This document shows positions 1,821 through 55,200 of a DNA stretch of 64,000 bases, one piece after another (positions within the stretch are counted from its first letter, which is position 1; every line of letters starts with the position of its first letter). The stretch comes from Lingula anatina. Its lineage: Eukaryota; Animalia; Brachiopoda. Under the pieces are notes generated by a model that was given only the letters and a program-made list of their open reading frames with translations, made no database searches and had not been told where the DNA came from. The stretch covers positions 12,458,587 through 12,522,586 of the forward strand of contig CM120648.1 in the NCBI GenBank assembly GCA_051362555.1, read 5' to 3'. A program made the position numbers and the translations under genes.

Positions 1821-1867
1821 ATTTTGACATAAAGTTTGGACTTCGCGTCTAAGTCGAGTCTCACTTT

Positions 1868-10397: not shown

Positions 10398-10534
10398 TGT
10401 TAGCAGACCTTGCAAGGAATTCAGTTTATTGGAATTAATTTCTGAATAACAAGTTAAGAAAATTCACTAGTTCACTAAAGACACAAAACAACTGTCACTT
10501 TTACTTTAAAACCCTTTTGATCCTACCAGTATAA

Positions 10535-23914: not shown

Positions 23915-23971
<57 letters not shown>

Positions 23972-29900: not shown

Positions 29901-32900
29901 TAAAACCCCCTTTACACTGGACGGTGTCCTTTCTGCGTCCTTTGTGCGACCATGAAACTGGCCAGGACGCCGTTGGACGCTCAAGAACGCACAGTGATCG
30001 CCAAGGTGGCACAAAGAACGTTCAAGCATCGCCGAGGACGCCTTGGACGCCACAAAGTTTTGAGCATGTTCAAAACAATCGCAGAAAGAACGCTATGGAG
30101 GATGGTCGCGCAATGGACGCAGAAAGGACGCACAAGCATCGCCGTGGTCGCAGAGAAGACGCACAAGCATCGCCGCGGTCGCAGAGAGGACGCACAAGCA
30201 TCGCCGCGGTCATAGAAAGAAGGCACAAGCATCGCTTTGGTTGCAGAATGAAAACTCAAAGATCATCCATTGATCGGCACGTAGAACATTATTATTTTTC
30301 ACTCTGAAACGGGGCCTTGCTGAGGTATTTTTTACCAAAAAGGAATTCTAAGGGTAACAGTGGTCTCATATCGGCCTCCAATTGTTTTTTCCCCTAAAAT
30401 TCATGAAACGATCCATTTTTTAGGTTATTATAAAACGAATATTTTGCCTTTTTTACAAGATGCATTAATTGTCAAAACTCTGCAGAATGCGTCATTTGAA
30501 AACGGATTCAAATATTCTATGCTGTGTCAGTCACACTTTCTCGTTTTCGGCGCCTGTCCATCCTTCTTATAAGGATAACATTGAGCATTTGGCTGATTAT
30601 TAGTCCATGCAGACCTTGCATAACTATAGTTTAAAGCGTTAATTCCCATTTATTTGTTTTGTGTACTGGAAATGTTCTTTATTGGATGACCTGGTTAGAA
30701 CCGATGAAAATATATGAGTTAGAATATAGAGAAGGACGCCCAAACATTAACGCTCATTGGTCAAGCAGGATGCAGAATGATCGTAGAATAGATGCCACTG
30801 ATCACCAATGAAGGTACAGAGAATGCAGCAAGAATGCTCAATGGTCGCTCAAACATCGCAGTGGACGCATTGGGTTGCACAGGGGACGTGCAGTGGGAGC
30901 ACAGTTTTACAGGTAAACTCAAGATTCGTTCTTTCAAAGGACGCACAAGGGACGCAGACGCCTTTACACTGAGACACAATTTAATTGCTTAGGCGACCGT
31001 TGAGTGTCTTGACCACATTTTTGAACGCAGAAGGGACGCAGAAAGGACACCGTCCAGTGTAAAGGGGCCCTAACTGAGTAGATCTGAGTACTGTTCACTT
31101 CTCACTGAGTCTCCATTATGCTTATGTCCAGCTTTCAGTTTTAACAAAGATAGTCAAAAAAACATACTTGCCAACTTTGGAGTCTCAGATTTTTAGCACC
31201 TCTGTTTTCTTTCAACATTCGTGAACATCACTGCCGATTTCAGGGTCTCTGGATCTACATATCGCATGAAATTTGCCACAAAGTGGAGAGCCACTTTCCT
31301 TTTGAACTTCCCTCTTTGATAGCGACCTTAACCCCCCACAATATATTTTTTGGTCAGCAACAGAAAACACTCTTTTCTATTGGACTAAGTACATGGACAA
31401 AGTGAAACTTTCTGACAATTTTTTGGGGGAACATACATTATGTAGTATTAGCCATGACATAAAGCCCCTTGAGTTACAGTTTAAATATTTATAAAAACAT
31501 CCTTACGTCATATATATATATATATATAATTTATCGTGACTGAATCACTAAAAAAATATATCGGAACACAGTATAAAAATTAAAATTAAATGACCTGAAA
31601 AGCTGCGTTACTGGAACAAAGGTTACCATTTAGGGCTCACATTTGGTAAAGACATGGTAACAATTGAATACAACTGAATTCATTCAACTTGATTTTGGGG
31701 GACCTTAATAATATGGTTATGTTCTTCTGAGAAGTAATTGCAGTGCACTTTTCACCAAGTAAAATGGCTTGATAATATTCTCAAACTTACAGAATGGAGT
31801 GATTTTTTGGGTTTGAGTATGTGTGTAAAAAATACAGTGATTAGTATTTCAAAAGTGTCTTTGTGTGTGTGTGTGTGTGTGTTATATTTTCTCTTTTTAT
31901 GTACAGACACAGATGTGTCTGTACATATAGCCGTTATCTGCGTCTGTCGTCGCCGTCGCCGTGCACTTTTACCGATAACACGATAAGTGGAAAACTGTTT
32001 TTTCTTTTGGCTTGAAACTTACAGAACTGATGAATATTCATAATACGCAGGTCAAGTTCGAAAATCAGCATGATCGGGTTACTAATAGGAAATTTATGCT
32101 GTTTTTTTCACTTTTTTCAGCATATATGCAGCACCGATAACACGATAAGTGGAAAACCGTTTTAACTTTTGGCTTGAAACTTACAGAACTGATGAATATA
32201 ATACGCAGGTCAAGTTTAAAAATCAGCGTGACAGAACTGATGAATATAATACGCAGGTCAAGTTTGAAAATCAGCGTGATTGGGTCATTTTTAGTAAATT
32301 TAGGCTATTTTTCTCTTTTTTCAGCATATATACAGCACCGATAACACCATAAATGGAAAACCATTTTACCTTTTGGCTTGAAACTTACCGAACTGATGAA
32401 TATTCATAATACGCAGGTCAAGTTTGAAAATCAGCATGATTGGGTCATTTTTTTGTACAGACACAGATGTGTCTGTACATATAGCCGTCATCTGTGTCTG
32501 TCGTCGCCGTCTTTGCCGTCGCTGTGCACTTTTACCGATAACACGATAAGTGGAAAACCATTGTACCTTTTGGCTTGAAACTTACAGAACTGATGAATAT
32601 TCATAATACGCAGGTCAAGTTCAAAAATCAGCATGATTGGGTCATTTTTAGGGAATTTATGCGTTTTTTTTTTCACTTTTTTCAGCATATATGCAGCACC
32701 GATAACACGATAAGTGGAAAACCATTTTACCTTTTGGCTTGAAACTTACAGAACTGATGAATATTCATAATACGCAGGTCAAGTTCGAAAATCAGCTTGA
32801 TTGGACTATTTTTACAAATTTAAAGTTATGCTTTTTATGTACAGACACAGATGTGTCTGTACATATAGCCATCATCTGCGTTCGTCGTCGCCGTCGCCGT

Positions 32901-35840
32901 CGTCGCCGTCGCCGTGCACTTTTACTGATAACACGATAAGTGGAAAACTGTTTTTTCTTTTGGCTTGAAACTTACAGAACTGATGAATATTCGTAATACG
33001 CAGGTCAAGTTCGAAAATCAGCATGATCGGGTCACTTATAGGGAATTTATGCTGTTTTTTCACTTTTTTCAGCATATATGCAGCACCGATAACACGATAA
33101 GTGGAAAATCATTTTACCTTTTGGCTTGAAACTTACAGAACTGATGAATATTCATAATACGCAGGTCAAGTTCAAAAATCAGCATGATCGGGTCACTTAT
33201 AGGGAATTTATGCTGTTTTTTCACTTTTTTCAGCATATATGCAGCACCGATAACACGATAAGTGGAAAACCATTTTACCTTTTGGCTTGAAACTTACAGA
33301 ACTGATGAATATTCATAATACGCAAGTCAAGTTCGAAAATCAGCATGATTGGGTCATTTTTAGTGAATTTAGGCTATTTTTTCTCTTTTTTTCAGCATAT
33401 ATGCAGCACCGATAACACCATAAATGAAAAACCATTTTACCTTTTGGCTTGAAACTTACAAAACTGATGAATATTCAAAATACGCAGGTCAAGTTTGAAA
33501 ATCAGCATGATCGGGCCATTTTTAGGGATGTTATGCTGTTTTTTCACTTCTTTCAACATATATGTAACGCTAATAACACAATATAAGAAAAACAGATAGG
33601 CCAATTGTCATTATACTCACAGGAGTAGTCAAACTAACTATAAAACGCAGGTTGAGTTCCAAAATCAGCATAATCGGGCCATTCTTTTAGAAGTTATGCT
33701 GTTTTTTCACATTTCCTCAGATTCAATTGTTAGGCATATTAACAGTCTCATTATTGAACTAATAAGATACGTAAAAGTGTTTGTTTGACATTTCCTGCAT
33801 CTTAATAACATTGTTAGTTGATTATGTAAAAATGATGGTAAACTTGTTATTGTGTATTATGTTATAAAGTGTCAAAAATGGAAATAAACAAATATCATTG
33901 CAGTTTGTCAGATTCAATCATTTACTATATTCATTATCTCAGAATGGAGGAAATTGGACATTTAACACTGTTCTATTGATATTTTTCCCATCTCATCAAT
34001 TTTCTTAGTTGATCATATACAAATGGTAGAAAACTGTTTATTTTGTTTTATGTTAAAAAAGTGTTTTAAAAATGGAAGTAAACCCATTGCAGAACAGAGC
34101 TGTCTTGTTTCAGCATATATGCAGCACCGATAACACGATAAGTGGAAAACCATTTTACCTTTTCCCTTGAAACTTACAAAACTGATGAATATTCATAATA
34201 CGCAGGTCAAGTTTGAAAATCAGTATGATTGGGTCATTTTTAGAGAATTTATGCTGTTTTTTCACTTTTTTCAGCATATATGCAACACTGATAACATGAT
34301 AAGTGAAAAATCATTTTACCTTTTGGCTTGAAACTTGCAGAACTAATGAATATTCATAATACGCAGGTCAAGTTTGAAAATCAGCATCATCGGGCATTTT
34401 TAGGGAAGTAATGCTGTTTTTTCACTTTTTTCAGCATGTATGCAACACCTTTGTGCTATTTGATGGTACTGTATGGATGACAGTCTATAAAATTGTCCCT
34501 TGGGTGATCACTAATTAAACTAAGGTCTATAAAGTCACTTGCCTACTCATTAATTTTCAATTGGCCATTAAATGAGATTACATAAAACACTCCTTGAGAT
34601 TTCCCTGTAAAGTCCCATAGGTTTAGCTCTCTTAACTGTGTCACAAAATTAGGATTTGGTGATAATTGTGCAGATAAATGGTGTTTAACATTGCAAATAA
34701 ATTTACAACAAAAAGAATGTGTTATGCCAACATGCTATAGATGAATAACAGTGCTTTATTTTTCTCAAACTTGGTGGGGTTATTAATATCAAGTTAATAC
34801 AGCTAGATTAAAAGTTTGAATAGCAGCTTTATTGGAATTTTTTACGTTTTATTAAAAATTTTTTTAAAGTTATTTTTCAAACACAAGCATCTTCAAGATG
34901 TGATTTTATACTCCCATCCACCAGAAGTGCTGTGCATTTTCTGTATTTTTGTATATAATTGTTATTTCTTCAGATTTAATTCTTAGGCATGTTAACAGTC
35001 TCATTATGGAACTAATAAGATATGTAAAAGTGTTGTTTTGACATTTTCTGCTTCTTAACAATATTGTTTGTTGATTATATAAAAATGATGGTAAACCTGT
35101 TATAATATTGTGCATTGTGTAATTTGGTATCATAAATGGAAAGGAACTCATCATTGCAGTTTGTCAGATTTAATCATTCACTATGTTCAGCATCTGCAAA
35201 TAGAGCAAATTGGACATTGAAAATTGTTCTATTGCTATTTTTCCTATATCAGCAATTTTCCTAGTTGAACATTTAAAAATGACAGTTTATTGATCATTTT
35301 GTTTTAAAAAAGGTGTTGAAAATGGAAAGAAAATCATTTCAGTACAGTTATCTCTTGTTTACATTTTGGCATTTTGAAAGTGTGGCTCTGAACTTCCATG
35401 GCCTTGAAGACCTTCCCAAATCACATTTTCTGAATATTCATGATACTTTTATTTTTTTATGAAAATTTGATGGTCATTATGCTGTTAAGTATTATGTTTT
35501 ATTGCATGAAAGTTGAAGAAAACCCTATTTTGGACACTGCTGCCAGGATAGCGATTAAGGGAAAACCATGTTACTTACGATACTGAAACTTAGTGAAAAG
35601 TTTCATAAGACAGAAGTGCGCAGCTTGTGTTTGAAAACCAGTGTGATTGTTTTCTGTTTTGGAGGCAATGCAGGTTTATAGAGTGCTATACTGGCATTTT
35701 CAAGTTGTGACTTATCACTCCCATCTGCCAGGAGCCCTGTACTCTTACTTTGTAACATTTTCTGTATTTTGTTAAGTTACAAGAATGATTCTTAGGATTG
35801 ACATACAGCCCAAAAAAAAATAATAATAATAATATATAGT

Positions 35841-35885
<45 letters not shown>

Positions 35886-38800
35886 AAATGAGTTTAAGCA
35901 ATTTTTTTTTGTGTGTAATTTTCACTCATTGTGTGTAATTTTCACCTCATTCTGGCATTTCCAAAGTTTAACTCTTATCAGCCTAACACCTTAGGGACTA
36001 TTTCCAGACCCTATCACGCTAACTGTGGATCGATCTATCTCCATGGGAATTCTCGCTAAATTGCAATCAATGTAAGTGGCTTAGTTGTCTGTCACGCCTA
36101 CTGAAACTGGCATGCCAAAATCCTAAGACTCTCAAACTGAAAGCAATTTAGTGAGAAACCCCTTGGAGTTGCATTGATCCTGTTAGATTGATCTAGGTAT
36201 GGGAACTCAGTCTAATGCTTGATACACATTTTACTTTCATCCTAATCCAATGTTATGCAGAATAAGAATTTGATGTTGGCTATGCAGTTACAGTAAGCAT
36301 AATACATTAGTTCATCAGAATTGACAGTATCCTATTTCCTGCGTTTTTATTTTCTGGTTTTTGTCTGTACATTTGACAGCTTTGCTGCCTTGTTTTCCAT
36401 TTTTTCTGCATATATACAACACTGATAACGCATTTTAAGGAAAACCAATCGGCCTTTTGTCTTGAAACTCACAGGAGTGATCAGTCTGACTAATATACAG
36501 ATCAAGTTTGAAAATAAGCTTGATCAGTTCAGTTTTGATGAAGTTATTAGCCTATTTGTATATAATATAAGTGGTTTTTCTTCAGGTTTAATTTTTAGGC
36601 ATGTTAAAAGTCTCATTATGGAACAAATTAAATATGTAAAAGTGTTTGTTTGACATTCTCTGCTTCTTAGAAATATTGTTAGTTAATTATATAAAAATGA
36701 CAGTATACCTTTTATTGTGCATTGTTTAATAAAGTATCAAAAATGGAAAGGAACTCATATCATTGCAGTTCGTCAGACTCACTCATTCACTAAGTTAAGA
36801 ATCTCAGAATGGAGCAAGTTGGACATTAAGATTTGTTCTATTGAAATTTTTCTTTGACAACATATTTTAATTGATCACATAAAAATGACAGTAAATCGAT
36901 TGTTTTTTTATGTAAAAAAAGGTATTGAAAATGGAAATTAACTCTTTTCAATACAGTATCTCTTGTTTAGTTTTTGGGATTTTCAAAGTGTGTCTGAACT
37001 CTATTGGCTAGACACATTTTGTGAATATCCATGATAGTTTTATTTTATCATTAAAAAACTGATGGTTATTATGCTGTTAAGCATTGTGTAATATTGCATC
37101 AAAATAGAACAAAACCCTATTTTGGGCACTGCCTCCGTAGTGACTGTGAAAGGAAAACCATGTCACTTGCTCTTTTTACACTTAAGGGAAAGAAAAATAG
37201 GACTGAAATACAGCTTCAGTTGGAAAATATGTCTCATTAGTTAATTTTCGGGAAACTATAGAGGTTTTTTTGTGAAAATTTTTTTCTTTCACATACTGGA
37301 ATTTTCAATGTGGGACTTAGAACTCCCTTGGGCATGAAGCCCAGTGGTAATCACATTTTTTTAATGTCCATGTTTTTAATAGTAGACATTTTAAAATAGG
37401 TGGTATTTATACAGTTAATCATTATGTAATGTTGCATCAAAATTGACAAAAAACCTACTTTGTGCACTGCCACCATTAACGTTATGGAAAGAAAACTGTT
37501 ACTTTCTATTTTTTCAACTAGTCTTACAAGAATGATTCTTAGGATTGACATACATGTACAGCTCATATTAGAAAACCAGCTCTATTAGATTATTATTTTT
37601 ATTAAATTTATGCATTTTTTGTGAAATTTTCATTTTTCTCATTCTGGCACTCTCTAAGTATAAACTTGAACTCTGATGGGCCTGAAGCCTTATGCTTCTA
37701 CTTTCGTCGGTGTTACCTGTTGTGCATGATTAAAATTTGATGTTGACTGTGCAGTTAAACATAATGTATTATTGCATCAGAATTGAAAGTCTCCTATTTT
37801 GTGCATTATTGTTTTGTGCTTTTCTTAAGGTGTGACTTATGGGCCTGAAGACCTTTGAGAGAGTCAGTCTGTAAATTTCCCTTGGGTATCACTAGGCTAA
37901 GTTATAAAGTTATAAAGTCATTTGCCTTATTAATAGGCCATTAAATGAGATTACATAAAGCACACTTGTTGATATTTCCTTGTAAACTCCCAAAGGTTAA
38001 GCTCTCTGCTAGATTAATAATAAGGAAGCAGTGATAATTATGCAGGTAAATTTTGTTTTATATTGCAAATAAGTTTTTAATATATATATATATATAAAAC
38101 TCACAGATTAAAAGTTTGAATAGCAGCTTCATTGGAATTATATTTACCTCTGCCAAGGAGGCTATGTTTTCACCCCTGTTTGTCTGTCATCAACATAACT
38201 CAAAAAATTATGGACCGATTTTGATGAAATTTTCAGGAACTGTCAGAAGTGGGTCAAGGAGGACAATGATTAGTTTTTGGTGGTGGTTCGGATCAATAAT
38301 CTATCAATAATTATCAAAAAATGCTGCCTTGGCAGAGGTTTGCGCTCTCAGAGTGCTTTTCTAGTTTTGTTATGTTTTCCTTTTTAATTTTTTCTCAAAC
38401 ACTGCCATTTGTGACTTTTAACTCCCATCCGCCTGAGGCTCTGCACATTTTCTGTATTTCCACATAAGCAGTTATATTGGTTTTTATGTCTTTAAACATT
38501 GTGTAATATTATTTTATGCACTGTCATCATTTTTCAAATATTGGGACTTTCATCATGTGAATTTGAACTCTCATGGTCCTGAAAGTGTAATCTTATTGAA
38601 GGGATGGATTGAGACCATCTTCTGGGTCTCCCGGAAGACGGTTGGGTTTTTAAGTTTATATTGACAGATATTTATTAATTTTTCTGTTGAAAGACAATCA
38701 AAATGGAGGATGGATCAACAAAGATACTTTGGAATACTGCCAGAATATATCTGGGTCCGTTCCTGTTATTGACCATGTTACCTGTTGTGCATGATAAAAT

Positions 38801-41800
38801 TCAGTGTTGACTAACAGTGCTATTATAAGCATTATTTATTATTGCATCAAAATTGACAAAATGACCTATTTTGCATCATTATTTTCTGTTTTTTGTTTTT
38901 TTTTTTTGTCTGTACATTTGACAGCTTTGCTGCCTTGTTACATATTTGCATTTTTAGTGTGTGACTTAATTTGTGTGTTTTCACAAGAAAATATCTAACT
39001 TACTGCTTTAAGATTAACATGCTTCCTGGCATTGAGTAAAATACAGAAAAGCTGGTGATGACACAAATACCTGGGGAACCATTCCCTCCTTCTGTTCATT
39101 TATTCATCATCCACAGTTTTTTTTTTTTTTTTTTTTTTTGTCCATTAAATAATCATTCAATTGTGTATATCTTTACAGTTGGAGGGAGCTGGCTGGCCTG
39201 GGGAGCCTGGAGCAGCTGCTCTGTGATCTGTGGTACAGGCACCTACTCTAGAAATCGTACTTGTCATGATCCAAATCTGCCCAGTGAACAAGCGCTATGT
39301 GCAGGTGGAGCCACCAACTCTACCCAGACACTGTCCTGCTTTGAACAACACTGTCCAGGTAATTGTATTCCATACAGACACTGTCCTGCTTTGAACAATA
39401 CTGTCCAGGTAATTATATTCCATACAGACACTGTCCTGCTTTGAACAATACTGTCCAGGTAATTATATTCCACACAGGCACTGTCCTGCTTTGAACAATA
39501 CTTTCCAGGTAATTATATTCCACACAGACACTGTCCTGCTTTGAACAACACTGTCCAGGTAATTATATTCCACACAGACACTGTCCTGCTTTGAACAATA
39601 CTGTCCAGGTAATTATACTCAACACAAACACTGTCCTGCTTTGAACAATACTGTCCAGGTAATTATATTCCACACAGACACTGTCCTGCTTTGAACAACA
39701 CTGTCCAGGTAATTATATTCCAACCAGACACTGTCCTGCTTTGAACAACACTGTTCAGGTAATTATATTCCACACAGACACTGTCCTACTTTGACCAACA
39801 CTGTCCAGGTAATTATATTCAATACAGACACTGTCCTGCTTATAACAACTTTGTCCAGGTATTTATTCTTCACCCAGAAACTGGCCTGCTTTGAAAAAAT
39901 TTGCCCAGGTATTGAGAAATATTGAACCTACTGGTATAATTATCACATCTTAACTCACCTTATAAATTGTGGCAAAGTTTTTAATAAAAATTGCATGAAA
40001 AACAAATAAACCAACTGGAGCATTTTTACCTTAGGAGAGAATATTAAATGCTAGACCTTAATAATGTTTTTATTTATTTAATTTTTTTGCACCAATTTTT
40101 TTCTGTGTTTTATTATCCTCTTCATTGCCCTTATTCAGCTGGTGGGAAATAACCAGGAGGCAGCATTGCCTCTCTGATCCACTAGTTTCTGCTGAATCTT
40201 GTGACCACACAAACTACTGTTAAACATCATTACAGATTGCAGCACAATGAACTGCCTAGGGGCGTGTATAGTCAGAGATCAACACTCCTACTGTCTCTGC
40301 CCTGACAGCGTGAAAGATAAAGTTGGCATCTTTGAAGACTCAGCACTAATTATAACACAGAGGTGACTCAATATATTACAACCACTCACAACATAATATT
40401 AATTATTGTCTTTTTCCTTACTGCTCTTGAATTATGTGCTGCTTATTTTTAAGTAATAGTTTCCTGAATCCTCATTTATATAGAACTTGGCATACTCAAT
40501 CAACATAATATAGCTTATTGTTAACAAGTTTAAAATGAGTCACGTCATTCAATAGTTAGATTGTTTTTCCTAGGTAAACTTATATCCTTCTATAAAAATA
40601 ACTTAGAATTAAAAATATACATTAAATGATTGATCTCTAGATGTACTGGGTAGTGTAAGCTGTCTGACCCTGGAGCCAGGGTGTCCATACTTAATTGTCC
40701 AGTTGTTTCTCTAGGTATACTGGTCAGTGTAAGCTGTCTGACCCTTGAGACAAGGTGTCCATACTTAATTGTCCAGTTGTTTCTCTAGGTGTACTGGTCA
40801 GTGTAAGCTGTCTGACCTTTGAGGCAAGGTGTCCATACTTAATTGTCCGGTTGTTTCTCTAGGTGTACTGGTCAGTGTAAGCTGTCTGACCCTGGAGCCA
40901 AGGTGTCCCTAGAGGCTGTGTGTTATCACTGTGACCCTATGGACTACCTATGGGACCTCAGCCCAGTGAACACCACAGTGCAGGGACTGGACTGGAGCCA
41001 GGACACCACCACAGATAAAACAGAGAGAGGACTGAGTGTTAAACCAGGTGTTCTTGTACCTGGGGAGCTCTACCAGGTCACAGCTAATGGTACTTAAGTA
41101 GTGTGAGAACAGATGCAAATTTTAAGCTTGGTATTAGCCATTTGGGAATACTGTATATTCAGCAATAATGTTTATTCTTGTCACTTGAAGTTGGATTTTA
41201 CATGTAACTTATGAAGAGAGATAAAAGCAACTGAATTATGTTGTAACATAAAAAAGACTATTTCACTGATTTAATATTAAATCCAAATTGCTTCTTCAAA
41301 ATAGTTCAAAACCATACAGATTCAATCAGTGTGAAAGCATCAAATCAACTAGTTTCTTTTTTCTTCTGGTACAGTGCTGTCACCATCATGTCATGTGTAG
41401 CTGTACCGGTAGGTACAAGCCAATCTGCTGGTACAGTGCTGTCTACATTATTATGTCAAGTGTGTCTGTAGGTACAAGCCAATCTGCTGGTACAGTGCTG
41501 TCTACATTATTATGTCAACTGTGTCTGAAGGTACAAGCCAATCTGCTGGTACAGTGCTGTCTACATTATTATGTCAACTGTGTCTGAAGGTACAAGCCAA
41601 TCTGCTGGTACAGTGCTGTCTACATTATAATGTCAAGTGTGTCTGTAGGTACAAGCCAATCTGCTGGTACAGTGCTGTCTACATCATGTCATGTGTGTCT
41701 GTACTGGTAGGTACAAGCCAATCTGCTGGTACAGTGCTGTCAGCATCATGTCACTTGTGTCTGTACCGGTAGGTACAAGCCAGTCTGCTGGTACAGTGCT

Positions 41801-44800
41801 GTCTACATCTTGTTTTATGTGTCTGTAGATACAAGTCAATCTGCTTGTACAGTGCTGTATACATCTTGGCTTATGGTTCTGTAGGTACAAGTCAGTCTGC
41901 TGGTGCAGTGCTGTCTACATCTTGTCTTATGTGTCTGTAGGTACAATTAAGTCAGTCTGCTGGTACAGTGCTGTCTACATCTTGCCTTATGTGTCTGTAG
42001 GTACAATTAAGTCAGTCTGCTGGTACAGTGCTGTCTACATCATGACATATGTGTCTGTGGGTACAAGCCAGTCTACTGGTATAGTGCTGTCTACATCTTG
42101 TCTTATGTGTCTGTAGGTACAATTAAGTCAGTCTGCTGGTACAGTGCTGTCTACATCATGACATATGTGTCTGTGGGTACAAGGCAGTCTGCTGGTATAG
42201 TGCTGTCTACATCTTGTCTTATGTGTCTGTAGGTACAATTAAGTCAGTCTGCTGGTACAGTGCTGTCTACGTCTTGTCTTATGTGTCTGTAGGTACAATT
42301 AAGTCAGTCTGCTGGTACAGTGCTGTCTACATCATGTCTTATGTTTCTGTGGGTACAAGTCGGTCTGCTGGTTTAGTGCTGTCTACACCAGTTCATTTGT
42401 GTCTGTAAGTACAAGCCAGTCTGCTGGTACAGTCCTGTTTACATCATGTCATGTGTGTCTGTAGGTACAAGTCAGTCTGCTGGTACAGTGCTGTCTACAC
42501 CAGTTCATTTGTGTCTATAGGTACAAGGCAAATTGGTCTTCAACTTGTCTGGTATGGTACAATGCTGTCTACATCTTGTCTTATGTGTCTGTAGGTACAA
42601 GTCAGTCTGCTGGTACAGTGCTGTCTACATCATGCCATTTGTATCTGTAGGTACAAGTCAGTCTGCTGGTACAGTGCTATCTACATCATGTCTTATGTTT
42701 GTGTGGGTACAAGTCGGTCTGCTGGTACAGTGCTGTCTACACCAGTTCATTTGTGTCTGTAGGTACAAGTCAGTCTGCTGGTACAGTACTGTTTACATCA
42801 TGTCAAGTGTGTCTGTAGGTACAAGTCAGTCTGCTGGTACAGTACTGTCTACATCATGCTGTGTGTGTCTGTAGGTACAAGCCAGTCTGCTGGTACAGTG
42901 CTGTCTACATCATGTCATCTGTTTCTATGGATACAAGTCAGTCTGCTGGTACAGTGATGTCTACATCATATCGTGTGTCTGCAGGTACAAGTCAGTCTGC
43001 TGGTACAGTGCTGTCTACATCATGACATGTGCATCTGTGGGTACAAGTCAGTCTACTGGTACAGTGATGTCTACATCATGTCATGTGTATCTGTGGGTAC
43101 AAGTCAGTCTGCTGGCACAGTACTGTCTACATCATGTCATGTCTGTCTGTAGGTACAAGCCAATCTGCTGGCACAGTGCGGTCTTCAACATGTCATGTGT
43201 ATCTGTAGGTACAAGTCAGTCTGCTGGTACAATGCTGTCTACATCATGTCATGTATGTCTGTGGGTACAAGTCAGTCTGCTGGTACAGTGCTGTCTAAAT
43301 CATGTCAGTCTGCTGGTACAGTGCTGTCTACATCATGTCATGTTTGCCTGCAGGTACAAGTCAGTCTGCTGGTACAGTGCTGTCTACATCATATCGTGTG
43401 TCTGCAGGTACAAGTCAGTCTGCTGGTACAGTGCTGTCTACATCATGTCATGTCTGTCTGTAGGTACAAGCCAATCTGCTGGTACAGTGCTGTCTACATC
43501 ATGTCATGTGTATCTGTAGGTACAAGTCAGTCTGCTGGTACAGTGCTGTCTACATCATGTTTCATACAAATGGGGACCAGCCCTAGTCCAGGAATATGCA
43601 CAGTTTCTCCTTCCACTGGCTTTGAGATTGTCACCAATTTCTCAGTGAATTGCTCTGGGTTCAGTGACAGCACTAGTCAACTCCACTATAACTACCATTT
43701 TTGGGATGGAGATCCTGCTACCAAGAATCAATCAGGTAACTGGTCTGCATTTTGTAAATGAATAGATTAAATGGCAATAGTTAAAATTGTTAGCCATTTC
43801 ATTTTAAATGGCAGCAGTTAAAATTGTTAGGCAAGTTGATCTTACATAATCATAGGATCTGCATAACATATGGTCTTTGGAAATCTCAACCAAACTTTAG
43901 CCGAATATCTGAGTGTGATTTGTATCCACATGTGGAGATGAAGAAGCTTTGATTTCATGTATCATACCTGATTCAGAAGCTCAATGTAATATTCCAGCAC
44001 TGAGGGTTGACCTGTTTGTATCCACCAATATTTGTATAAAAATGTTCCTATTTCCCTCAGGTATCCTGTTAGGAAGCAGTTCTGGTGGTTATATCCACAT
44101 CTCTGCCTTGTCAGTGTCCCCAGCCAGTGAAAACAGTCAGGGAGAGGTCCGTGTGCATGCTGTCAATGAAGATGGTATGAGGACAGTGGTGACTTCCACC
44201 ATCCAGGTATGTTTACATTAAGTTGTGGGGGGTTAGAGTGTGTGCATACTGCCACTAAATATGGTATGAGGACAGTGGTGACTATACCTTGATACCAATT
44301 TTACTAGGTATTATATATATATATATGGTCACATTCAGAACAGATGATCCATGTAGTAACTGATCTGTAGACTAAATATGGCCGACCCTACTTAAAAGCA
44401 AGCATTCTAATCCACTGATGGTCATCCCGCCTCCACACCATAAAGTGGATTAAATCTTGGCTCAGAGGTTTTATTACTAGACCCCAGCAGGAGGTTGGGA
44501 AACCATCAGTAGATCAGTCAGCATTGCTTTTAAGTAGGTGGGCCATTTTTGATCTGCGGATCTGTTGGTCTACTGATCAACATGTTCTGAATGTGCTCTA
44601 TAAGATCATAGTTTAGATTAGATTTGGTGTATTTTCTGTTTAAGGTCCGTCCATTAGGTGACCATCCTGATTTAGCAGACAGAGATGTTGGTACCTTTCT
44701 GGAGGAGATAACAGGGGATTTGAACGGCATCTTGTGGACAGCTGTGAGAGAAGGCGACTACACAGGTTCTCTTTCTGTCTATATAATTGTAAACCGTCAA

Positions 44801-47800
44801 CCCTTGGGTTGTGATTTTTTTTACTTAATCATTTTTGTTTTTAAAGTGTATTTATTTGAATAACAGAATGTTTGCTAGCTAGGTTTTATATGTTAATATT
44901 TTGTCACATCCTTCCCTGTGGTATAGACTTTTAGCTGTTCTACAGCTGTTTGAATCTGTCAGTTATGTTAATTAAATTAAGTTGTATATGTTATTCACAT
45001 CTTTCTCTGTGTTAAGTTCTGTATGTTATTCACATTCTTCTCTGTGATATTGGCTTATAGCTGTCCTACAGCTCCTTGAATTTGTCAGTCATATGTTAAG
45101 ATCTATATGTTATTACCTTGGGTCACATACTTCCCTGTGATATTGGCTTTTAGCTGTTCTACAGCTGGTTGATGCTGTCAGTTATGTAAAGATCTATATG
45201 TTATTACCTTGGGTCACATACTTCCCTGTGATATTGGCTTTTAGCTGTTCTACAGCTGGTTGATGCTGTCAGTTCCTTCCTGAATTCTGGTACAGAAAAA
45301 TTACCTGACACAGAGGCAATGGAACAGGTAAATAAATAGATAAATGACAATGAAAAAAAAAAAAAAAAAAAAAAAAAAGATAAATGTCAGAAATATATGG
45401 ACAAATAAATGAAAATGTAATAATGAAATAAATAACATTTTGACCGACGGATACAAAGGAAAGGTATTGTAATTAGTCAATCTTTTCTATGGGCAAAAAC
45501 TATCAAACTTTCAAATTGTTTAATAATCACAAAAATTATATTTCTGCATTGTTTTGTGCTGTTTTAATTCACAGAATAGAACTACCATACAATATGAATG
45601 TTATAGTTAATTTTAAGGAATTTTGTCCCATATTTAAAAGATCGAGTAATTTCTGTATAGCACCAGGAAGTCTTTTCTTCCACAGATACGCAGTGATATG
45701 ATGGAGGCAGTAGGTAATTTAACTATTGACAGCCTATCTACTGCCCAGCAAGCAGCAGAGACATTGACCAAACTCACAGAACACACCACAGAGATTACTG
45801 CACACTCACAGGTACTGAGCACTTGGTGTCTTTTGCATTGTAGATAGTTGCTTTTCATCTTGTATTTATATTTATATTTTTCAGGCTTCAGAATTTATGT
45901 TTAATCCTCAAAACATGTTATATCAGGTTAAAAATTGTACATACTGGTTCTGGTAAATGAATTCAATAAGCAAGGTATCAGGCCTGCTGCAAACTCTAAT
46001 TTGCTGCAAGGTTGCTGCTAATCTGCTGTGAATTTGCAGCAATTTTGCCAGAACATAGAATTACACTAATATATATTATTATATAAGCTGTACAAATTGT
46101 CACTATTGTTATTTCGCATGAAAAGGAATTCATGGGTATCATGTGTACCCTGCACAGACATTGTTTTTCCTATTGAAAAGATCGAAGAATTACCATACCT
46201 TCATATTGATTAGATTAATTTTCAGACTTCAGGCATGGACACAGTGGAAAGGTTATCCCTGGTGTTGAGCAGTGGACAGAGGAATGCAACTTTTACTGAA
46301 GTAGAGGATACTGCGACGTAAGCCAGGAAAGAAACTCTTTAATAAAATTGTAGCATACTAAGAATTGAAGAGACACCAGTCTTCCTGGCCCCTATTTCAC
46401 AAAGAATCTTAAATCTTTCAAATCAACTACAAAGTAACAGTAAAACATAATTTTGTCTTAGAACGCTGCTGTAGGACATCTAGCAGTCAAAAATATAAAC
46501 AAACCCGTGTTTGTCTGGATGAAGTTGCATTTTATTTTTTTTATATAAATATTCAATTAATTTCAGTATTATTCAAGGATATTATAACACAATATGTTGA
46601 AAGAGGTATGTTCTTTCCAAATATTTGTTGATTATGCTCTCATTTACCAAGTTTTAGTTGAGCATTCTGACTTAGACACCTCCCAAGGAGGCAAGGCTTT
46701 GTCCACTAGCAGCTAAGAAAAAAAAACAATGTAAGCTACCTTTTATATTCTTCGTGAAACATGACCAAGTGAAGTAAGGACTTAATCACATTGATAACCA
46801 AGCTTTTGGTCAGGGAACCCGACTTAAGTTTGTTTTTTTTTTTTGTGTGTGAAACGGGGGCCTGAGCACTAACAATAATATCTTTATAAGCTTTGATTTG
46901 TTTTCATGGCATCAGGTCCATCTCAATCTAAGTGCATTTTCTATTTTGATATATCATTATCTATGACAATATCAATTTAACTGCTCTTTAAAAATTTCCG
47001 TGAAAAAAATAGAAACTTTGAACTAGGAACTACCCTTGGCAAAATATCAGGCCTGCTGCAAACTCTCTCTTAAATTCGCTGCAAATTTGTTACAAACTTT
47101 CTGCAAATTTGCAAGAAGTTCTTGCAAATTCACTGCAAGTTTGCTGCCAAGCATTTGCAGCAAATTTGCGAGAACTTGAATACTTTCCTGCAAACTTACT
47201 GTAAACTGAATATGTTCTTTCAAATTTGTTGCAAATTTGTCACAAATTCGTCAGAACAAAGACTTTTCTTGCAAACCTATTGCAAACGTAAGTTTTTATT
47301 GCAAATTTGTTGCAAATGAGCAGCAATACAAATTTTCTCTCAAATTCCTACAAACTACTTGCCACAAACTTTTAATTACCAAAAAAAGAAAAAGTCAGAA
47401 ATAGAAAAGAAGTTAGTTAAGGAAATTGAACTTTTAGAAAATATAACTTGCGAGGCCAATATTCAGACTTTAAGACAAAAGCAAAAAGAATTGGAGGAAG
47501 TACGAAAAGAAAAATTACAAGGCGCATTTATAAGACCTAGAGCTAAGTGGGTGGAGGAAGGCGAAAAACCAACTAAATATTTTTGTGGTCTAGAATCGAG
47601 AAATTTTACCAATAAACTGATTCCAAGAATTCGGCTAGACGATGGCACAATTATTGTTAACCAGGGTAAGATACTAGAAAATACCAAAAACTTTTATGAA
47701 AATCTGTATGCATGCCGGGAGCATAACATAGAAGATGTTAACCTAGATAATGAGGTAACCCTTAACGATGTTTATAAACTCAGCAATCTGGAAGCTGCCG

Positions 47801-50800
47801 AATTGGAAGGGCCCATTACGGAGGCAGAAGCAGCACAAACATTATCTAAAATGAAATCGAACAAATCCCGGGAACTGACGGCTTTTCAGTTGAATTTTAT
47901 AAGGTATTTTGGAGACAACTAAGCTCTTTTGTTGTCAGGTCAATTAATTTTGCTTACGAAACTGGCCAGTTATCGGTGACGCAAAAACAAGGTATAATCA
48001 CTTGCCTCCCGAAGGGAGATAAACCACGCCACTTTCTTAAAAACTGGCGCCCCATTCTCAATACTATATACAAGATCGCCTCGGGTTCGATAGCTGCTAG
48101 GGTAAAACTAGTGTTAGATAAATTAATATATCCGGAACAAACCGGATTCATGGCTGGCAGATATATCGGAGAGAACACGCGACTTATATATGATACAATG
48201 CAGTATACTGAAGAAGAAAATATTCCTGGGTTACTGTTATTAATTGACTTTGAAAAGGCATTCGATTCCTTGTCTTGGTCATTCATTCAAAAGGTTCTGA
48301 CCTTTTTTAACTTTGGTGATTCAGTCAGGAGATGGGTATCATTGTTCTACAATGACATCTCTGCTACAGTAAATCAAGGGGGGAATATGTCGGAATTCTT
48401 TAAAATTAATCGAGGATGCCGTCAGGGGGATCCCCTCTCACCCTGTCTCTTTATTCTATGCGCCGAAATATTGGCGGCGTTTATACGAAACAATGACAAT
48501 ATAAAGGGTATTAATATAGGTGCAAAAGAATTAAAAATCGAAGATCTCCGGTCTGCATATTAATCTCTCTAAAACTGAAGTTATATGGATTGGGTCAAAG
48601 CGATACTCTAAAGATATCCTCTGCCCAAAATAAAGATTAGATTGGGGAAAAACTAGTTTCAAAATGCTAGGGATAGAATTTGACGTAGATTTAGGTAAGA
48701 TAACGAAGCAAAATATGGAGACCAAATTAACTTCCATGAAAAAAAATATTTAATCAGTGGAGAGTAAGAAATATAACACCAATTGGTAAAATAACAGTAA
48801 TAAAAACATTAGCCTTGCCGGTATTGAATCATATATTTAAATCGCTCCCAAACCCAGAGGAAAAACAGATTAAAGAATTAGAAAAGTGTCTTTTTTCTTT
48901 TCTTTGGAATAATAAACCTGATAAAATTAAAAGAAATATCATTATAAGAGATTATAAAGCTGGGGGCATGAGGATGGTAAGCGTGAGGCATTTTATAAAA
49001 ACGTTAAAAATTCCGTGGGTAAGAAGACTTATGTTCGAAAATAAAGCATGGAAAAATATTATATCTTAATATGTAGACACTGAAAAACTAATCACATGTG
49101 GTACAGAATATATCTCAAAAATCTTGAAAAACATAAAAAATAGATTCTGGATTGATGCCTTAGCAGCCTGGAAAGAACTCTGTGGTACAATAATGACCAA
49201 TAAAATCAAGGATTTTGGTAACATTCCACTCTTTCTAAATGAAAATATACTTATTGGAAATAAACCTGTCTTCTATACATCGTGGTATGACAAAAACATT
49301 AAATTTGTTAATGATCTACTCCTGGACTCTGGAGAGTTCTATGACTTCACTGCGTTCAGGGATATCCACGGTATTGACACAAATTTTGTCGAATACCATG
49401 GAATTATCTCAGCCATAAAAGAATGGCTTGGTGGTATTCCTGAAAAATTAAGTAAAATTGCCACTCCTTTAATTCCTGATCATATATTGTTGCTGTCAGG
49501 TTGTTCAAAAGGCTCAAAGATTTATTATAAAACTTTAAGTAAAGTAGGTGTTCTTGAGATGTCAAAAGGTATGAATAAATGGAAGGAGTTGTTAAATTTG
49601 GAGGAAAATGAATGCCCGAAGATTTTCGAACTTCCTTTCACAATAACAAAAGATTCAAAGCTTCACTGGTTCCAATTTCGAATTAATCATAATATCCTTA
49701 CCACAAACTCACTGCTTTTCAAATATAAAATGGTCGACAGCAGTATATGTTCCCTTTGCAAAGGAGCTGAAAAAACAACTGAGCATTTATTCTGGAATTG
49801 TGCGGTTACCCAAAAATTATTGACCGACTTGGTAGAATATATATTACCTAATACTCAAGTTACTCTACCTGTCTCAAAAAAGAATTGCTTAGTCGGCTCT
49901 ACGAGCCTCTCTGCAATTATTAATCTCATTATGTTGCAATTTAAATTTTATATTTATTTAAGAAGATGTTCACAGGGTAAACCAACATTAGGAGGTTTGA
50001 TTTCATCGCTTAGATATCTGGTGAAAACAGATAAGTCAATCTGTCAGTACAATTCAAATATAATTAAGTTATTTTCAATTTGAAGATTTAGCGTACGACG
50101 ATATAATTAACTAAAAAGTGTTATATAGTATAACATCTCTTATGTGTGAGTGTGTGAGCGAGTGTCTGTTTGTTTGTATTTGTATTGTCATGTTTTCTTG
50201 ATGTATTGTGTCAATAAAAAAAAAAAAAACTTTTAATTTGCAGCAAATTTGCTACAATTTTGCTGCCATATTGCTACAAACTTTTTATTTTGCTAAGGGT
50301 AAGGCAAACAAGAGGACTTCTCTGCATTCCATTGGCTGAGGCGAAAATATAAAGTAAATAAAAAACAAACAATATTTTGAAACCTCCTTATTGATCATAT
50401 TTAACAAACTTATTAATAAATGTTGTTAAAACATTATTTCTTATTATTTAGCATGATTCTACAATCCACCTCTAACCTGTTAAATGCCTCCATGGAGGAG
50501 TCAAGAGAAGTGAATATCACCGACATGACCCAACCTGAGAGGGTCAAAGTGCAGAAGGTGAGAAGAAAAATCAGAAGCCAGTCATTTTTTTTTATTGTAG
50601 CCTTAGGGACCATTCCCAGACCCTATTGTATTAACTGTGTTCAATCTATCTCCGAAAGGATTCTTGGTAAATTAAAATCAATTTAAGCAACTTAGATGTA
50701 TTTCATGCCTACTGAAGCTGCTAGTGGATAATTAATTCTCGTTTAGCAACTTCAGTAGGCTTGCCAGACATCTAAGCCACTTAAGCTGGAAGCAATTGAG

Positions 50801-52214
50801 CATTAAACCCCTTGGAGATGGATAGGTCCTGTTAGATCAATCTTGGTATGGAAACCTAATCTTAGTCAGCTGTCTGATTAATTTCTCTTCCTGACAATAC
50901 AATAGCCAGAATTTTAAAAGGGGGGGGGGGTCTTTTTCTGAAAAAGTGGATCTTTTACCACAAAACTTAAAGAGTACCTATACATGTAGATTAATAATTC
51001 TTACTTTCACAGACCTTTTCTCCGACAAAAAGGGCAGATGATTGAACTCCCCTTATTACCTCCCGGGCTATGGGCCTGCAATTTAACAGGCAAAAAAGCT
51101 GCAACCAAACAACCAGCCAGATCAACCAAACAACCAGCAACATCAACTAAACAACCAGCAACATCAACAAACAACCAGCAACATCAACTAAACAACCAGC
51201 CAGATCAACCAAACAACCAGCAACATCAACTAAACAACCATCCAGATTAACCAAACAACCAGCAACATCAACCAAACAACCAGCAACATCAACTAAACAA
51301 CCAGCAACATCAACCAAACAACCAGCAACATCAACTTAACAACCAGCAACATCAATTAAACAACCAGCCAGATCAACCAAACAACCAACAACATCAACCA
51401 AACAAATCACCTTTATTGTACCAAACACAAAAAAGGAAGAGAAAGAAGAACAAGGCAGCAAAGCTGTCAAATGTACAGACAAAAAACAGAAAATAAAGAT
51501 GCAAAATAGGTCATTTTGTAAATTTTGATGCAATAATAAATAATGCTTATAATAGCACTGTCAGTCAACACTGAATTTTAATCATGCACAACAGGTACCA
51601 TGGTCAATAACAGGAGCAAACCCAGAGATATTTTCTGACAGTATTCCAAAGTATCTATTTTGTTCCATCCTCCATTTTGATGGTCTTCCAACAGAAGAAA
51701 AAATAGATACCAGGCAATATAAACTTAATAACCTGACTGTCTTATGGAAGACCCAGAAGATGGTCTCAATCTACCCTTTCAATAAGATTACAGTTTCAGG
51801 ACCATGAGTGAATTCACATGATGAAAGTCTCAATATTTGAAAAATGATGACAGTGCATAAAATAATATTACATAAGTAAAATAATGTTTAAAGACATAAA
51901 AAACAATACAACTGCTTAATATGGGGAAATACAGAAAATGTGCAGAGTCTCAGGCGGATGATAGTTAAAAGTCACAAATGCAAGTGTTTGAGAAAATATT
52001 ATAAAGGAAAACATAACAAAACTAGAAAAGCGCTCCGAGAGTGCAGACCTCTGCCAAGGCAGCAACTGATGATTATTATTGATTATTGTCCTCTTTGGCC
52101 CACTTCTGACAGTTCCTGAAAATTTCAGCAAAATCAGTCCATAAAATATAACCTCCTTGGCAGAGGTAAATATAATTCCAATCAAGCTGCTATTCAACTT
52201 TTAATCTTTGAGTT

Positions 52215-52263
<49 letters not shown>

Positions 52264-55200
52264 GTTTTCTTCTATTTTGATGCAACATTACATAATGTTT
52301 AACAGCATCAATGTTTCATAATAAAATATTAGTATCATGGATATTCAGAAGATGTGTCTAGCAAAGGTCTTCAAGCCCGTGGAGCTTCTAAGTCACACCT
52401 TGAAAATGCCAATAAGTGAAAAATTAAATTTTCACAAAAAACTGTTTAATTGCCAGAAAAATTTACCAAACAGACTGCATTGCCTACTGAATATTTTAGT
52501 ACCATGTTTCTTTCCTGTAAGTTTGAGAACAGTGAGTGACATGATTTTCCTTAAATGGTCATCATGGGAGCAGTGCCCAAAATAGGGGTTTCTTCAAATT
52601 TTGATGCAATATTACATGATGTTTAACAGCATAATGACCATCAATTTTTAATAAAATATTAGTATCATGGATATTCAGAAAATGTGACTAGCAAAGGTCT
52701 TCAGGACCATGGAACTTCAAAGTCACATCTTAAAAATGCCAAAATGTAAACAAGACAGCACTTTTCTGAAATGGGTTTATTTCCATTTTTAACACTTTTT
52801 AACATAAAACAAAATTATCAGTTAACTGCCATTTTTATATGACCAACTAAGAAAATTAATGAGATGGGAAAATTATCAATAGAACAGTGTTAAATGTCCA
52901 ATTTTCTCCATTCTGAGATTCTGAACATAGTGGATGATTGAATCTGACAAACTGCAATGATATGTGTTTATTTCCATTTTTGACACTTCATTACACAATA
53001 CACAATAACAAATTTACCATCATTTTTACATAATCAACTGACAATGTTGTAAAGATGCAGAAAATGTCAAACAAACACTTTTACGTATCTTATAAGTTCA
53101 ATAATGAGACTATTAACATGCCTAAGAATTGAATCCGAGGAAATGTGAAAAAAAAGCATAACTTCTAAAATAATGGCCTGATTTTATGCTGATTTTCATA
53201 CTCAACCTATGTTTTAGTAAGATTGACCACTCCTCTGAGTACAATGACAATTGGCCTATCTGTTTTTCTTATATTGTGTTTTCAGTGTTGCATATATGCT
53301 GAAAAAAATGAAAAAACAGCATAACTTCCATAAAAGTGGCTCTTTCATGCTGATTTTCGAACTTGACCTGCATATTATAAATATTGATCAGTTCTGTAAG
53401 TTTCAAATCAAAAGGTAAAACCGTTTTCCACTGATCGTGTTTACGGTGTTGCATATATGCTGAAAAAAGTGAAAGAAAAGCATAACTTCCCTAAACGTGG
53501 CCCGATCATGCTGATTTTCGAACTTGACCTGAACATTATGAATATTCATCAGTTCTGTAAGTTTCAAGCCAAAACGTAAAACCGTTTTCCACTTATCGTG
53601 TTTACGGTAAAAGTGCACGGCAACGGCGACGACAGACGCAGGTGACGGCTATATGTACAGACGCATCTCTGTCTGTACATAATAAAAATTGGCATATTCT
53701 TTGCTCGGAATAAACAAAACAATTGCCTCTACCAAACATGTAAACAACCAACAACAAACCATCCCTTAAGTCAAAAGCAAGGAAGAAAAGTTCCTACTCC
53801 AAATAGTCCATTCCCTAATTATAAACCTCTCCAAACAAGATGTTAAATGTGTATTTTCATCTTGCAGACCAGATACATAGCAAATAAAGCGCTGAATATC
53901 ATAAGCACTATCTCAGACACTGTGCTGGCAAAGAAGGTGCCAGGAGAGGAACCCACTGTTATAGCCACCAAGACTTTGAGTGTCAAGGTGGGTGAGCTTT
54001 GCCAAGGACAAAATTGAACCCACGCGCTTGAAGAGTTTTAACTATAATGTTAAAACATGTAGTATGTCTTCACTATTGTGGTAAGGCTGTCAGTTTTGCC
54101 CTTGCCTTGGTTCAAAGTGTTACAGAATATGTATCTTTCAGTAATGATGCTCCAGTTTCATTAAAAGACCAGAGTAGAATGCTATTTTAAGCCATACTCA
54201 TGAAAATTTAAGAAATGTTCAGCATTTTTAAGTATAGAAATGATATGGTTAGACACAAATATTTACTTTATCATTTAATCAAAAGTTAATCATATTGACT
54301 ATTACCTAAAAAAAATTACCAATTTGTAAGTAATATGGTAGCAAAAATGTTTGTTGAAAAGAAATTAAACCCTTTTGTGCAACTTTCTTATCATTTGATA
54401 GAGAGCCCTAAAAATATTTCCCTATCAATTTTTATGTCAACTTTTATTAGTTTTGTACCATTCTTCTGTGATTCACTCATTTTTTAAACTCAACCTTGGC
54501 ATCAGATACTTAATGCCATGAGAAATTGTGTTTTAGTGTCAAAAATTGGACCTGGACACAATGAGTAGTTCCCACAGACTGCAAGTGCCCCAGCTCATTT
54601 CAGCAGAAGGGGGGAGTGATGAGACACCACCGTGTATGGTCGGCAGCTTTGCTTTACCTCCTGTTCAAAATATGCTTCGTGATGAACATAACAATATATC
54701 CAGTGCAGTTAATTTGCAGGTACTATAACTGTTTTTTTTTTTTTTTTTTTTTTTTTTTTTCTTTTTTTTTTTTTTAATTTGATTTTATTTACTTATAAAT
54801 TTATTTAACTGCTCATTACTCACATGCTTGCACAATCAGCAGGGTCATCCATTTGTCCTAAGCCCAGGGCTGGTAAAACTTTGATTAGACCAGTAGATTT
54901 TTCAGAACGTGTGAATTAAGTGGTCTGACATAGGCATAAGATTTTTTCAAAAGAGCTGCTGATTTGATTCAATTTTTTCAAAGTAACTGTTCTTAAAAAT
55001 ACATGACAAAAACAAGGTTTAATTATTTATAATATCACAGACTGATGGCACAGACTGTTACTGCTTTACTGAATACCAGTAAGTCACATACATCACTATA
55101 GTGTGTGTTTACATGTGTGTGTGTGTGTGTGTGTGGGGGGGGGGGTAATGAAAGATAGCCTCTTTGATGCTATTTTATTTTTTCATTTATTTAACAATGT

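What the first reader, a model, noticed from the sequence alone, without database searches (positions are those of the whole stretch)
39325..45273. Cluster of five unrelated tandem arrays, each centred on a splice junction of one gene
Seen: in 6 kb, five junctions (donor 39358, acceptor 40863, acceptor 43520, donor 44206, acceptor 45245) are each amplified. The units are unrelated in sequence (50, 74, 56, ~89, ~91 bp). Each holds an exon end plus the adjacent intron end, the copies extend into the intron, the main unit lengths are not multiples of 3, and the ORF is intact only through the exon-proximal copy. The remaining unique intron sequence in this stretch shows no comparable arrays. Inference: a process may preferentially duplicate DNA at exon-intron boundaries (co-transcriptional R-loop or break repair, or re-integration of small circular junction templates). 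It would build splice-site decoy arrays that could tune productive splicing via NMD or seed new introns and exons. I do not recognise this as a described system, but could not search the literature.
Basis: partly seen in the sequence, partly recalled or inferred. Interest (0 to 1): 0.82.

Follow-up and report, generated by a model that had tools for sequence, protein, structure and literature searches.

The report
Lamp-shell splice-junction "mirage" minisatellite cluster
In an intact, expressed polycystin-like gene of the lamp shell Lingula, five of twelve neighbouring exon edges have been copied head-to-tail into the adjoining intron (2 to about 38 copies); this repeat type is already known from lancelets, chickens and a human clotting gene, and here the spare splice signals are likely harmless because the few RNA reads that resolve the choice use the copy next to the exon.

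Summary
The arrays are real. Four clear junction-spanning minisatellites (50, 74, 56, 91 bp; about 11, 4, 38, 4 copies) and one decayed two-copy duplication (89 bp) lie in a PKD1L2-like gene of Lingula. A 22-exon model is open for 1,421 aa and is 92% identical to a RefSeq L. anatina protein. RNA reads use the exon-proximal site at four of the five junctions (4-8 reads each); the 38-copy acceptor was not resolved. All 44 intact spare splice sites would give a premature stop. Short-read DNA contigs from two studies show copies for four of five. Junction overlap exceeds random placement (P 6e-5 to 0.03 by null), but the window was picked for this pattern and no genome was held for a wider test. 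This is not an undescribed system: it matches amphioxus "mirages", chicken "exon stuttering" and the human F7 intron-7 VNTR. The scan has noted it before on other DNA, including other pieces of this genome. Most likely these are neutral tandem duplications that survive because the extra copies fall in the intron. Why seeds favour exon edges is open. No evidence for circles, R-loops or decay-based tuning. New member of a known kind; interest low.

The parts
13744..60205 (+). PKD1L2-like (polycystin-1 family) gene, 22 modelled exons: C-type lectin-like, sushi, TSP1, cysteine-rich exon, REJ, GPS, PLAT; true start and 3' exons not found in the model
   Evidence: Open 1,421-aa frame; 92% over 1,210 aa to P0017, L. 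anatina RefSeq; Pfam
39179..39358 (+). TSP1 exon; its donor is the first unit of array A1
   Evidence: PF00090 E 3e-9; joint 39358 to 40236 in 7 RNA reads
39325..39911 (+). A1: 50-bp donor minisatellite, about 11.4 copies, 11 spare GT donors; last two copies decayed (78%, 66%)
40236..40362 (+). Cysteine-rich exon with no repeat at either end
   Evidence: RNA joints on both sides; present in P0017
40634..40908 (+). A2: 74-bp acceptor minisatellite, 3.7 copies, 3 spare AG acceptors; real exon starts 40863
   Evidence: joint 40362 to 40863 in 8 RNA reads
40863..41089 (+). REJ exon E3
41362..43560 (+). A3: 56-bp acceptor minisatellite (15 nt intron + 41 nt exon), about 38 units, 89% of its intron; 36 upstream junction copies: 27 AG, 8 GG, 1 AA
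   Evidence: four unit-to-unit back-joints in DNA run X1
43520..43735 (+). REJ exon E4, opened by the last unit of A3
   Evidence: RNA depth about 7 in X12; 17 reads run from E3 into this exon's first 30 letters, copy not resolved
44061..44206 (+). REJ exon E5
   Evidence: RNA joints on both sides
44151..44313 (+). A4: decayed two-copy duplication of the E5 end at offset 89, with a degraded donor remnant; not an array
   Evidence: two X1 contigs show the same back-joint with different spacers
44645..44765 (+). Exon E6, no repeat at either end
   Evidence: RNA joints; P0017 and P0018
44887..45274 (+). A5: 91-bp acceptor minisatellite, 4 acceptor copies (44935, 45061, 45154, real 45245), with an internal 35-bp partial unit
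   Evidence: joint 44765 to 45245 in 4 RNA reads
45245..45327 (+). Exon E7

Best explanation
These are five independent tandem duplications of exon edges in a Lingula polycystin-like gene (the known 'mirage' or 'exon stuttering' type), likely seeded by ordinary repair or replication slips, likely expanded by slippage or unequal exchange, and likely kept because they are neutral: the extra copies lie in the intron and the RNA reads that resolve the choice use the copy next to the exon. Shown: anatomy, open frame, expression, use of the proximal site at four junctions, premature stops from every intact spare site. Inferred: (1) a 50-90 bp stretch across a junction is duplicated once; (2) exon definition picks the site nearest the exon body, so the protein is unchanged; duplications wholly inside an exon are purged; (3) the pair then grows and shrinks like any minisatellite, with the outer copies decaying; (4) the excess at junctions likely reflects a bias in where seeds arise or last, most simply at the edge between conserved exon and divergent intron when alleles or close paralogs recombine. 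Step 4 is untested.
For: Each unit holds an exon end plus the adjacent intron end and the extra copies run into the intron. Units are unrelated, strictly local and same-strand. Outer copies are the most decayed in A1 (78%, 66%) and copies far from the exon are generally less like the real unit in A3 (mostly 0.80-0.89 versus 0.86-0.98 near it), the turnover pattern described for amphioxus BflGb6 (PMC3087553 passages). Spare acceptors are not conserved: 9 of 36 in A3 have lost AG. RNA: 7 reads first donor of A1, 8 reads last acceptor of A2, 6 reads donor 44206, 4 reads last acceptor of A5; no joint to a spare site listed. Close paralogs or divergent alleles exist (P0001, P0017, P0018, P0020, P0002 at 92-96% identity), and DNA contigs show intron indels and two spacer forms of A4. 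Published mirages also leave splicing normal.
Against: Plain filtered chance predicts 0.6 to 1.9 junction hits where 5 are seen, so neutrality alone does not explain the excess, and step 4 has no direct test. All five lie within 12 consecutive junctions and 0 of the other 32 carry one (P about 0.01, post hoc), which a gene-wide exon-edge bias does not explain. RNA depth is low, a joint is listed only from 3 reads, decay would hide spare-site products, and most reads are under 99% alike, so they come from other animals or paralogs whose arrays may differ. Some sense-strand reads lie inside A1 (depth 2-3 in X12) and A2 (1-2 in X13, X14). The A3 choice was not resolved. I saw no clear microhomology at the array ends beyond 1-2 letters on inspection.
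Confidence: 0.65

Rival explanations
1. No junction bias at all: this 6 kb is a local tandem-duplication hot spot with short introns, so seeds often straddle a junction by chance, and the window was noticed because of it.
For: With arrays collapsed the stretch holds only 1,827 intron bases, so each seed has a 28-46% chance of spanning a junction; the P value rises to 0.034 when repeats in dispersed elements are counted. The cluster is confined to 12 of 44 junctions. In chicken, exon stuttering is described as a subset of general local stuttering.
Against: Even the local null gives P 0.007 (5 of 5) or 0.015 (4 of 4); no purely intronic duplication was found in the stretch. Unchecked scan notes report the same excess on other pieces of this genome; a lead only.
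Confidence: 0.15
2. A splicing- or transcription-coupled process (R-loop breaks, spliceosome-linked damage, or re-integration of small junction circles) targets exon-intron boundaries.
For: Excess of junction overlap under all four nulls; five unrelated units in one expressed gene.
Against: No dispersed or inverted copies in the window, which circle re-integration might leave; no consistent GC skew in the units; 32 other junctions of the same transcript are untouched.
Confidence: 0.1
3. The arrays are selected decoy sites that set the output of the gene by diverting transcripts to nonsense-mediated decay.
For: 44 of 44 intact spare sites would give a premature stop; a few sense-strand reads lie inside A1 and A2. 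Decay would hide the products from poly(A) RNA.
Against: Stops are expected from any read-through of intron; unit lengths not divisible by 3 have P 0.13; 9 of 36 A3 acceptors have lost AG; no spare-site joint listed; F7 pseudo-sites are functional yet do not compete (PMC1557585 abstract).
Confidence: 0.07
4. The arrays, or their lengths, are assembly artefacts.
For: No long reads were available; short-read contigs cannot give copy number. A5 shows no back-joint in X1.
Against: Copies differ from each other in structured ways. X1 contigs carry four A3 unit joints, one with the spacer of the 59-nt variant, and two A4 joints. In X3, 74 of 161 contigs fit two places and one 419-nt contig bridges the end of A1 into unique intron. 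X1 differs from the window at some positions in all its contigs there, so it is unlikely to be the source animal.
Confidence: 0.03

Closest known systems
Amphioxus 'mirage' minisatellites (Adh3, globins BflGb6 and BflGb9, troponin C, PGBD5). Seen: passages of PMC3087553 and PMC3902484; the original Adh3 and troponin C papers not seen.
   Same: Tandem copies of an exon-intron boundary at donor or acceptor side; units of 10-160 bp; many copies keep AG or GT; regular splicing unaffected; edge copies escape homogenisation; proposed as raw material for new introns.
   Different: Brachiopod, not cephalochordate; five junctions within 6 kb; one array of about 38 units. Copy-number difference between haplotypes and somatic instability not measured here.
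Chicken 'exon stuttering' on dot chromosomes (bioRxiv 10.1101/2025.09.16.676548; passages seen)
   Same: Exon edge with its splice site copied through the neighbouring intron; exon part 20-187 bp (median 36; here 30-56); 1-44 copies (here 1-37 extra); strictly local; several per gene; mechanism unknown, repair proposed.
   Different: There tied to GC-rich dot chromosomes and accompanied by much purely intronic stuttering; here units are 38-49% GC and no purely intronic array lies in the stretch. The passages seen do not cite amphioxus (0 occurrences of the word).
Human F7 intron-7 37-bp VNTR (PMC1557585; abstract and outline seen)
   Same: First unit spans the exon-intron boundary; downstream identical donors stay silent; the most upstream donor is chosen. 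Direct analogue of A1.
   Different: Single locus, donor side only; tested by mutagenesis. Three of the arrays here are on the acceptor side, where the last copy must win.
Internal tandem repeats at exon-intron boundaries in human segmental duplications (PMC2812944; passages seen)
   Same: Minisatellite-size repeats at boundaries in recently duplicated paralogs.
   Different: There they often change the protein or create introns; here no new intron or exon is shown.

Membership tests
Mirage / exon-stuttering minisatellite | Tandem repeat whose unit spans a real exon-intron boundary | tested here: met
   A1, A2, A3, A5; flanking junctions seen in RNA. A4 only as a decayed pair.
Mirage / exon-stuttering minisatellite | Extra copies lie in the adjoining intron; exon unchanged | tested here: met
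   Open 1,421-aa frame; no insertion against P0017 across residues 212-620
Mirage / exon-stuttering minisatellite | Many but not all copies keep GT or AG | tested here: met
   A1 11 of 11, A2 3 of 3, A3 27 of 36, A5 3 of 3
Mirage / exon-stuttering minisatellite | Local origin; unit unique to its junction | tested here: met
   No copy elsewhere in the 64-kb window; units unrelated. Rest of the genome not searchable.
Mirage / exon-stuttering minisatellite | Regular splicing at the exon-proximal site | tested here: met
   Met at 4 of 5 junctions with 4-8 reads each; A3 unresolved
Mirage / exon-stuttering minisatellite | Copy-number variation between haplotypes or individuals | tested here: inconclusive
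   Short-read contigs show two A4 spacer forms and one different flank at 40708 but cannot count copies or separate alleles from paralogs
Intron gain by tandem duplication of an AG/GT proto-splice site | New intron made wholly of the duplicated exon segment, both splice sites from the repeat | tested here: not met
   Each host intron has unique sequence and its other splice site outside the array (arrays fill 46-89%). Intron age across species not tested.
Polycystin-1 family (PKD1L2-like) host gene | REJ, GPS, PLAT and polycystin channel domains | tested here: met
   All found in P0017, which matches the model at 92% over 1,210 aa; the channel exons lie beyond the modelled part

The most novel reading that the evidence does not exclude
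Lingula has a regional mutational process that seeds tandem duplications specifically at exon edges, switched on over kilobase domains (5 of 12 consecutive junctions, none of the other 32, no purely intronic array among them). Mirages would then be a widespread, mechanism-driven feature of highly polymorphic invertebrate genomes, and this gene with its close paralogs a dated series in which their birth, growth and acceptor choice can be read.
Probability: 0.25. Interest if true: 0.6.

Novelty: new member of a known kind. Interest (0 to 1): 0.25.

Why it matters
As it stands: another clean example of a described repeat type, in a phylum for which my searches found no published report. It is a natural test of acceptor choice, since the last of 28 AG-bearing copies is the only one that keeps the frame, with only 15 intron bases in the unit. 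It is also a practical warning: such arrays break short-read assemblies and gene models. If a matched genome-wide test confirmed a true bias for exon edges, the origin of mirages and their proposed role in intron gain would become testable; that cannot be shown from this window.

Tried and rejected
No whole genome is held, so the genome-wide permutation could not be run. The run search listed no RNA holder of the stretch; RNA runs came by species label. X18 gave no splice joint and X15 only three reads at two joints. An alternative in-frame pairing (donor inside E6, acceptor 10 nt into E7) was considered and rejected: reads join 44765 to 45245 and P0017 and P0018 agree. Selection against spare AGs in A3 was looked for: the A of AG differs in 8 of 36 units, rank 6-8 of 56 columns, and the variants are probably not independent; no conclusion. 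Non-multiples of 3: not significant. R-loop skew and dispersed copies: not seen. Scan look-ups near the place and by sequence found nothing. Paper searches for Lingula with minisatellite or tandem repeats gave nothing on this (listings only); the earthworm metallothionein paper mentions intronic minisatellites and exon duplications but not this structure in the passages seen. No supplements were read; those of PMC3087553 hold the mirage alignments and those of the bioRxiv preprint are closed, so species lists there were not seen.
Full report
Observation. Tandem Repeats Finder gives four arrays in 39.3-45.3 kb: 50 bp x 11.4 (39325-39895), 74 bp x 3.7 (40634-40908), 56 bp over 41362-43560, and 91 bp x 2.7 (45030-45274; a more diverged fourth acceptor copy extends it to about 44890). 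Printed in register, each unit holds an exon end and the adjacent intron end. The fifth item, at donor 44206, is one decayed duplicate: 44 aligned bases of exon sequence 89 bases downstream and a degraded donor remnant. The five units share no match longer than 9 bases; every copy is adjacent, on the same strand, and absent from the rest of the window.

Host gene. I modelled 22 GT-AG exons from 13744 to 60205; they give 1,421 residues without a stop. The PLAT exon finds Lingula anatina PKD1-like 2 at 99%. The model is 92% identical over 1,210 aa to P0017 (XP_013390754.1), with no gap across residues 212-620, which cover A2 to A5, and 94-96% to four other L. anatina records. So the animal is L. 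anatina or a close relative, and the gene has close paralogs or divergent alleles. Pfam finds REJ, GPS, PLAT and channel domains in P0017, TSP1 and sushi in window exons above cut-off, and a C-type lectin match below cut-off. The stretch from donor 39358 to acceptor 45245 holds 12 junctions; 4 pass a junction-straddling repeat test, a fifth (A4) shows only by self-BLAST, and 0 of the other 32 junctions carry a repeat.

Expression and site choice. Seven of 21 listed runs were laid. In RNA, the first donor of A1 joins 40236 in 7 reads (2 of 3 runs), 40362 joins the last acceptor of A2 in 8 reads (3 of 3 runs); 44206 joins 44645 in 6 reads (2 of 3 runs) and 44765 joins the last acceptor of A5 in 4 reads (1 of 3 runs). 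No joint to a spare site is listed. Seventeen reads run from E3 into the first letters of E4, but the 30 letters shown are common to many A3 copies, so A3 is unresolved. Limits: depth under about 13, a cut-off of 3 reads per joint, three of the five RNA runs from one study, most reads under 99% alike (other animals or paralogs), decay would hide spare-site products, and a few sense-strand reads lie inside A1 and A2. Using any intact spare site gives a premature stop: 11 of 11, 3 of 3, 27 of 27 and 3 of 3; 9 of 36 upstream A3 copies have lost the AG.

Artefact check. DNA run X1 has four unit-to-unit joints of A3 and two of A4 with different spacers, and differs from the window at some positions in all contigs there. 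In X3, from another study, 74 of 161 contigs fit two places and one 419-base contig bridges the end of A1 into unique intron. A5 is covered but shows no listed back-joint. No long reads were on hand, so copy numbers rest on the assembly.

More than chance? In the modelled gene, 5 of 8 locally unique tandem duplications overlap a junction. With extra copies collapsed and wholly exonic seeds treated as purged, 0.57 are expected (P 6e-5; 5e-4 without A4); with transposon DNA removed 1.22 (P 2e-3; 9e-3); within the 6-kb stretch alone 1.87 of 5 (P 7e-3; 0.015); counting 9 more repeats inside dispersed elements 1.93 of 17 (P 0.034). Clustering within 12 of 44 junctions has P about 0.01. Five non-multiples of 3 have P 0.13. 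All are post hoc, since the stretch was chosen for this pattern, and no genome was held for a wider test.

How it most likely works. Shown: anatomy, open frame, expression, proximal site use at four junctions. Inferred: a short stretch across a junction is duplicated; the extra copy lands in the intron; the site nearest the exon body is used (for donors, the F7 work shows the most upstream site wins, PMC1557585 abstract; for acceptors I invoke exon definition from general knowledge, since the first A3 copy would make a 2.3-kb exon); the pair then turns over as a minisatellite, with decayed outer copies. The excess at junctions needs something more. My preferred, untested reading is that exchange between alleles or paralogs starts in conserved exon and fails at the divergent intron edge; an unchecked scan note offers a similar repair-near-exons wording. 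Circles, R-loops and decay-based tuning have no support here, but the last is only weakly tested.

Comparison with what is known. Amphioxus 'mirages' are tandem repeats spanning exon-intron boundaries, at either end, units 10-160 bp, with normal splicing and a proposed role in intron gain (PMC3087553 passages; PMC3902484 passage). I recalled the term and confirmed it before consulting the scan's notes. Chicken 'exon stuttering' has exon parts of 20-187 bp and 1-44 copies, mechanism speculative (bioRxiv 2025.09.16.676548 passages); the lead came from scan note e1-9855471. The F7 VNTR is the donor-side analogue. Five of six mirage features were met and haplotype variation is inconclusive. Searches for a Lingula or general invertebrate report gave none (listings), in a library that lacks most subscription journals. 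The scan lists 66 notes with these words in at least 24 genomes, including three on other pieces of this genome; these are unchecked and are not counted as support.

Verdict. Real, four arrays plus one decayed pair; a new member of a known kind; interest 0.25. The open point of value is whether seeds are truly biased to exon edges and why only over a 6-kb domain (probability 0.25, interest 0.6 if true).

Noticed in passing
window 13744-39358: The RefSeq models compared start at or after the 40236 exon, but 18 RNA reads join a sushi-exon end like that at 19570 to the TSP1 exon, across what is a 19.6-kb intron in the window, so the protein likely has a lectin-sushi-TSP1 N-terminus that those models miss.
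   Followed up: partly
window 39358: Five X14 reads continue from the TSP1 donor into a sequence not in the laid stretch that looks by eye like another sushi exon (agreement 0.77): a paralog or an alternative exon.
   Followed up: no
window 41090-41099: Three X3 contigs lack 4 letters at 41091, which turns the window's weak E3 donor into a consensus-like one; the window's form starts with the same four letters as the A3 unit's exon part.
   Followed up: no
window 44766: A donor far from consensus after its GT is used in RNA (4 reads).
   Followed up: yes
window 41345-41385: A long pyrimidine tract sits at the far end of A3, 2.1 kb upstream of the acceptor that keeps the frame; the unit carries only 15 intron bases, so the working acceptor appears to have lost its original tract.
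   Followed up: no
window 693-3006 (-): Gag- and pol-like frames of an LTR retrotransposon, judged by eye from the translations.
   Followed up: no
window 20200-21800 (+), 24240-29840 (-), 47320-50090 (+): Broken LINE-like frames inside the gene's long introns, judged by eye.
   Followed up: no
window 31971-34448, 36603-36957, 52767-53608: A dispersed repeat family with 161-, 191- and 323-bp tandem sub-units in several introns.
   Followed up: no
window 4861-5204: TSP1-like open frame with an internal 114-bp duplication, outside the gene model.
   Followed up: no
window 10530-10826, 30114-30247, 51102-51405: Minisatellites (22/34, 31 and 21 bp) that touch no modelled junction; the last two were counted as misses in the permutation.
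   Followed up: partly
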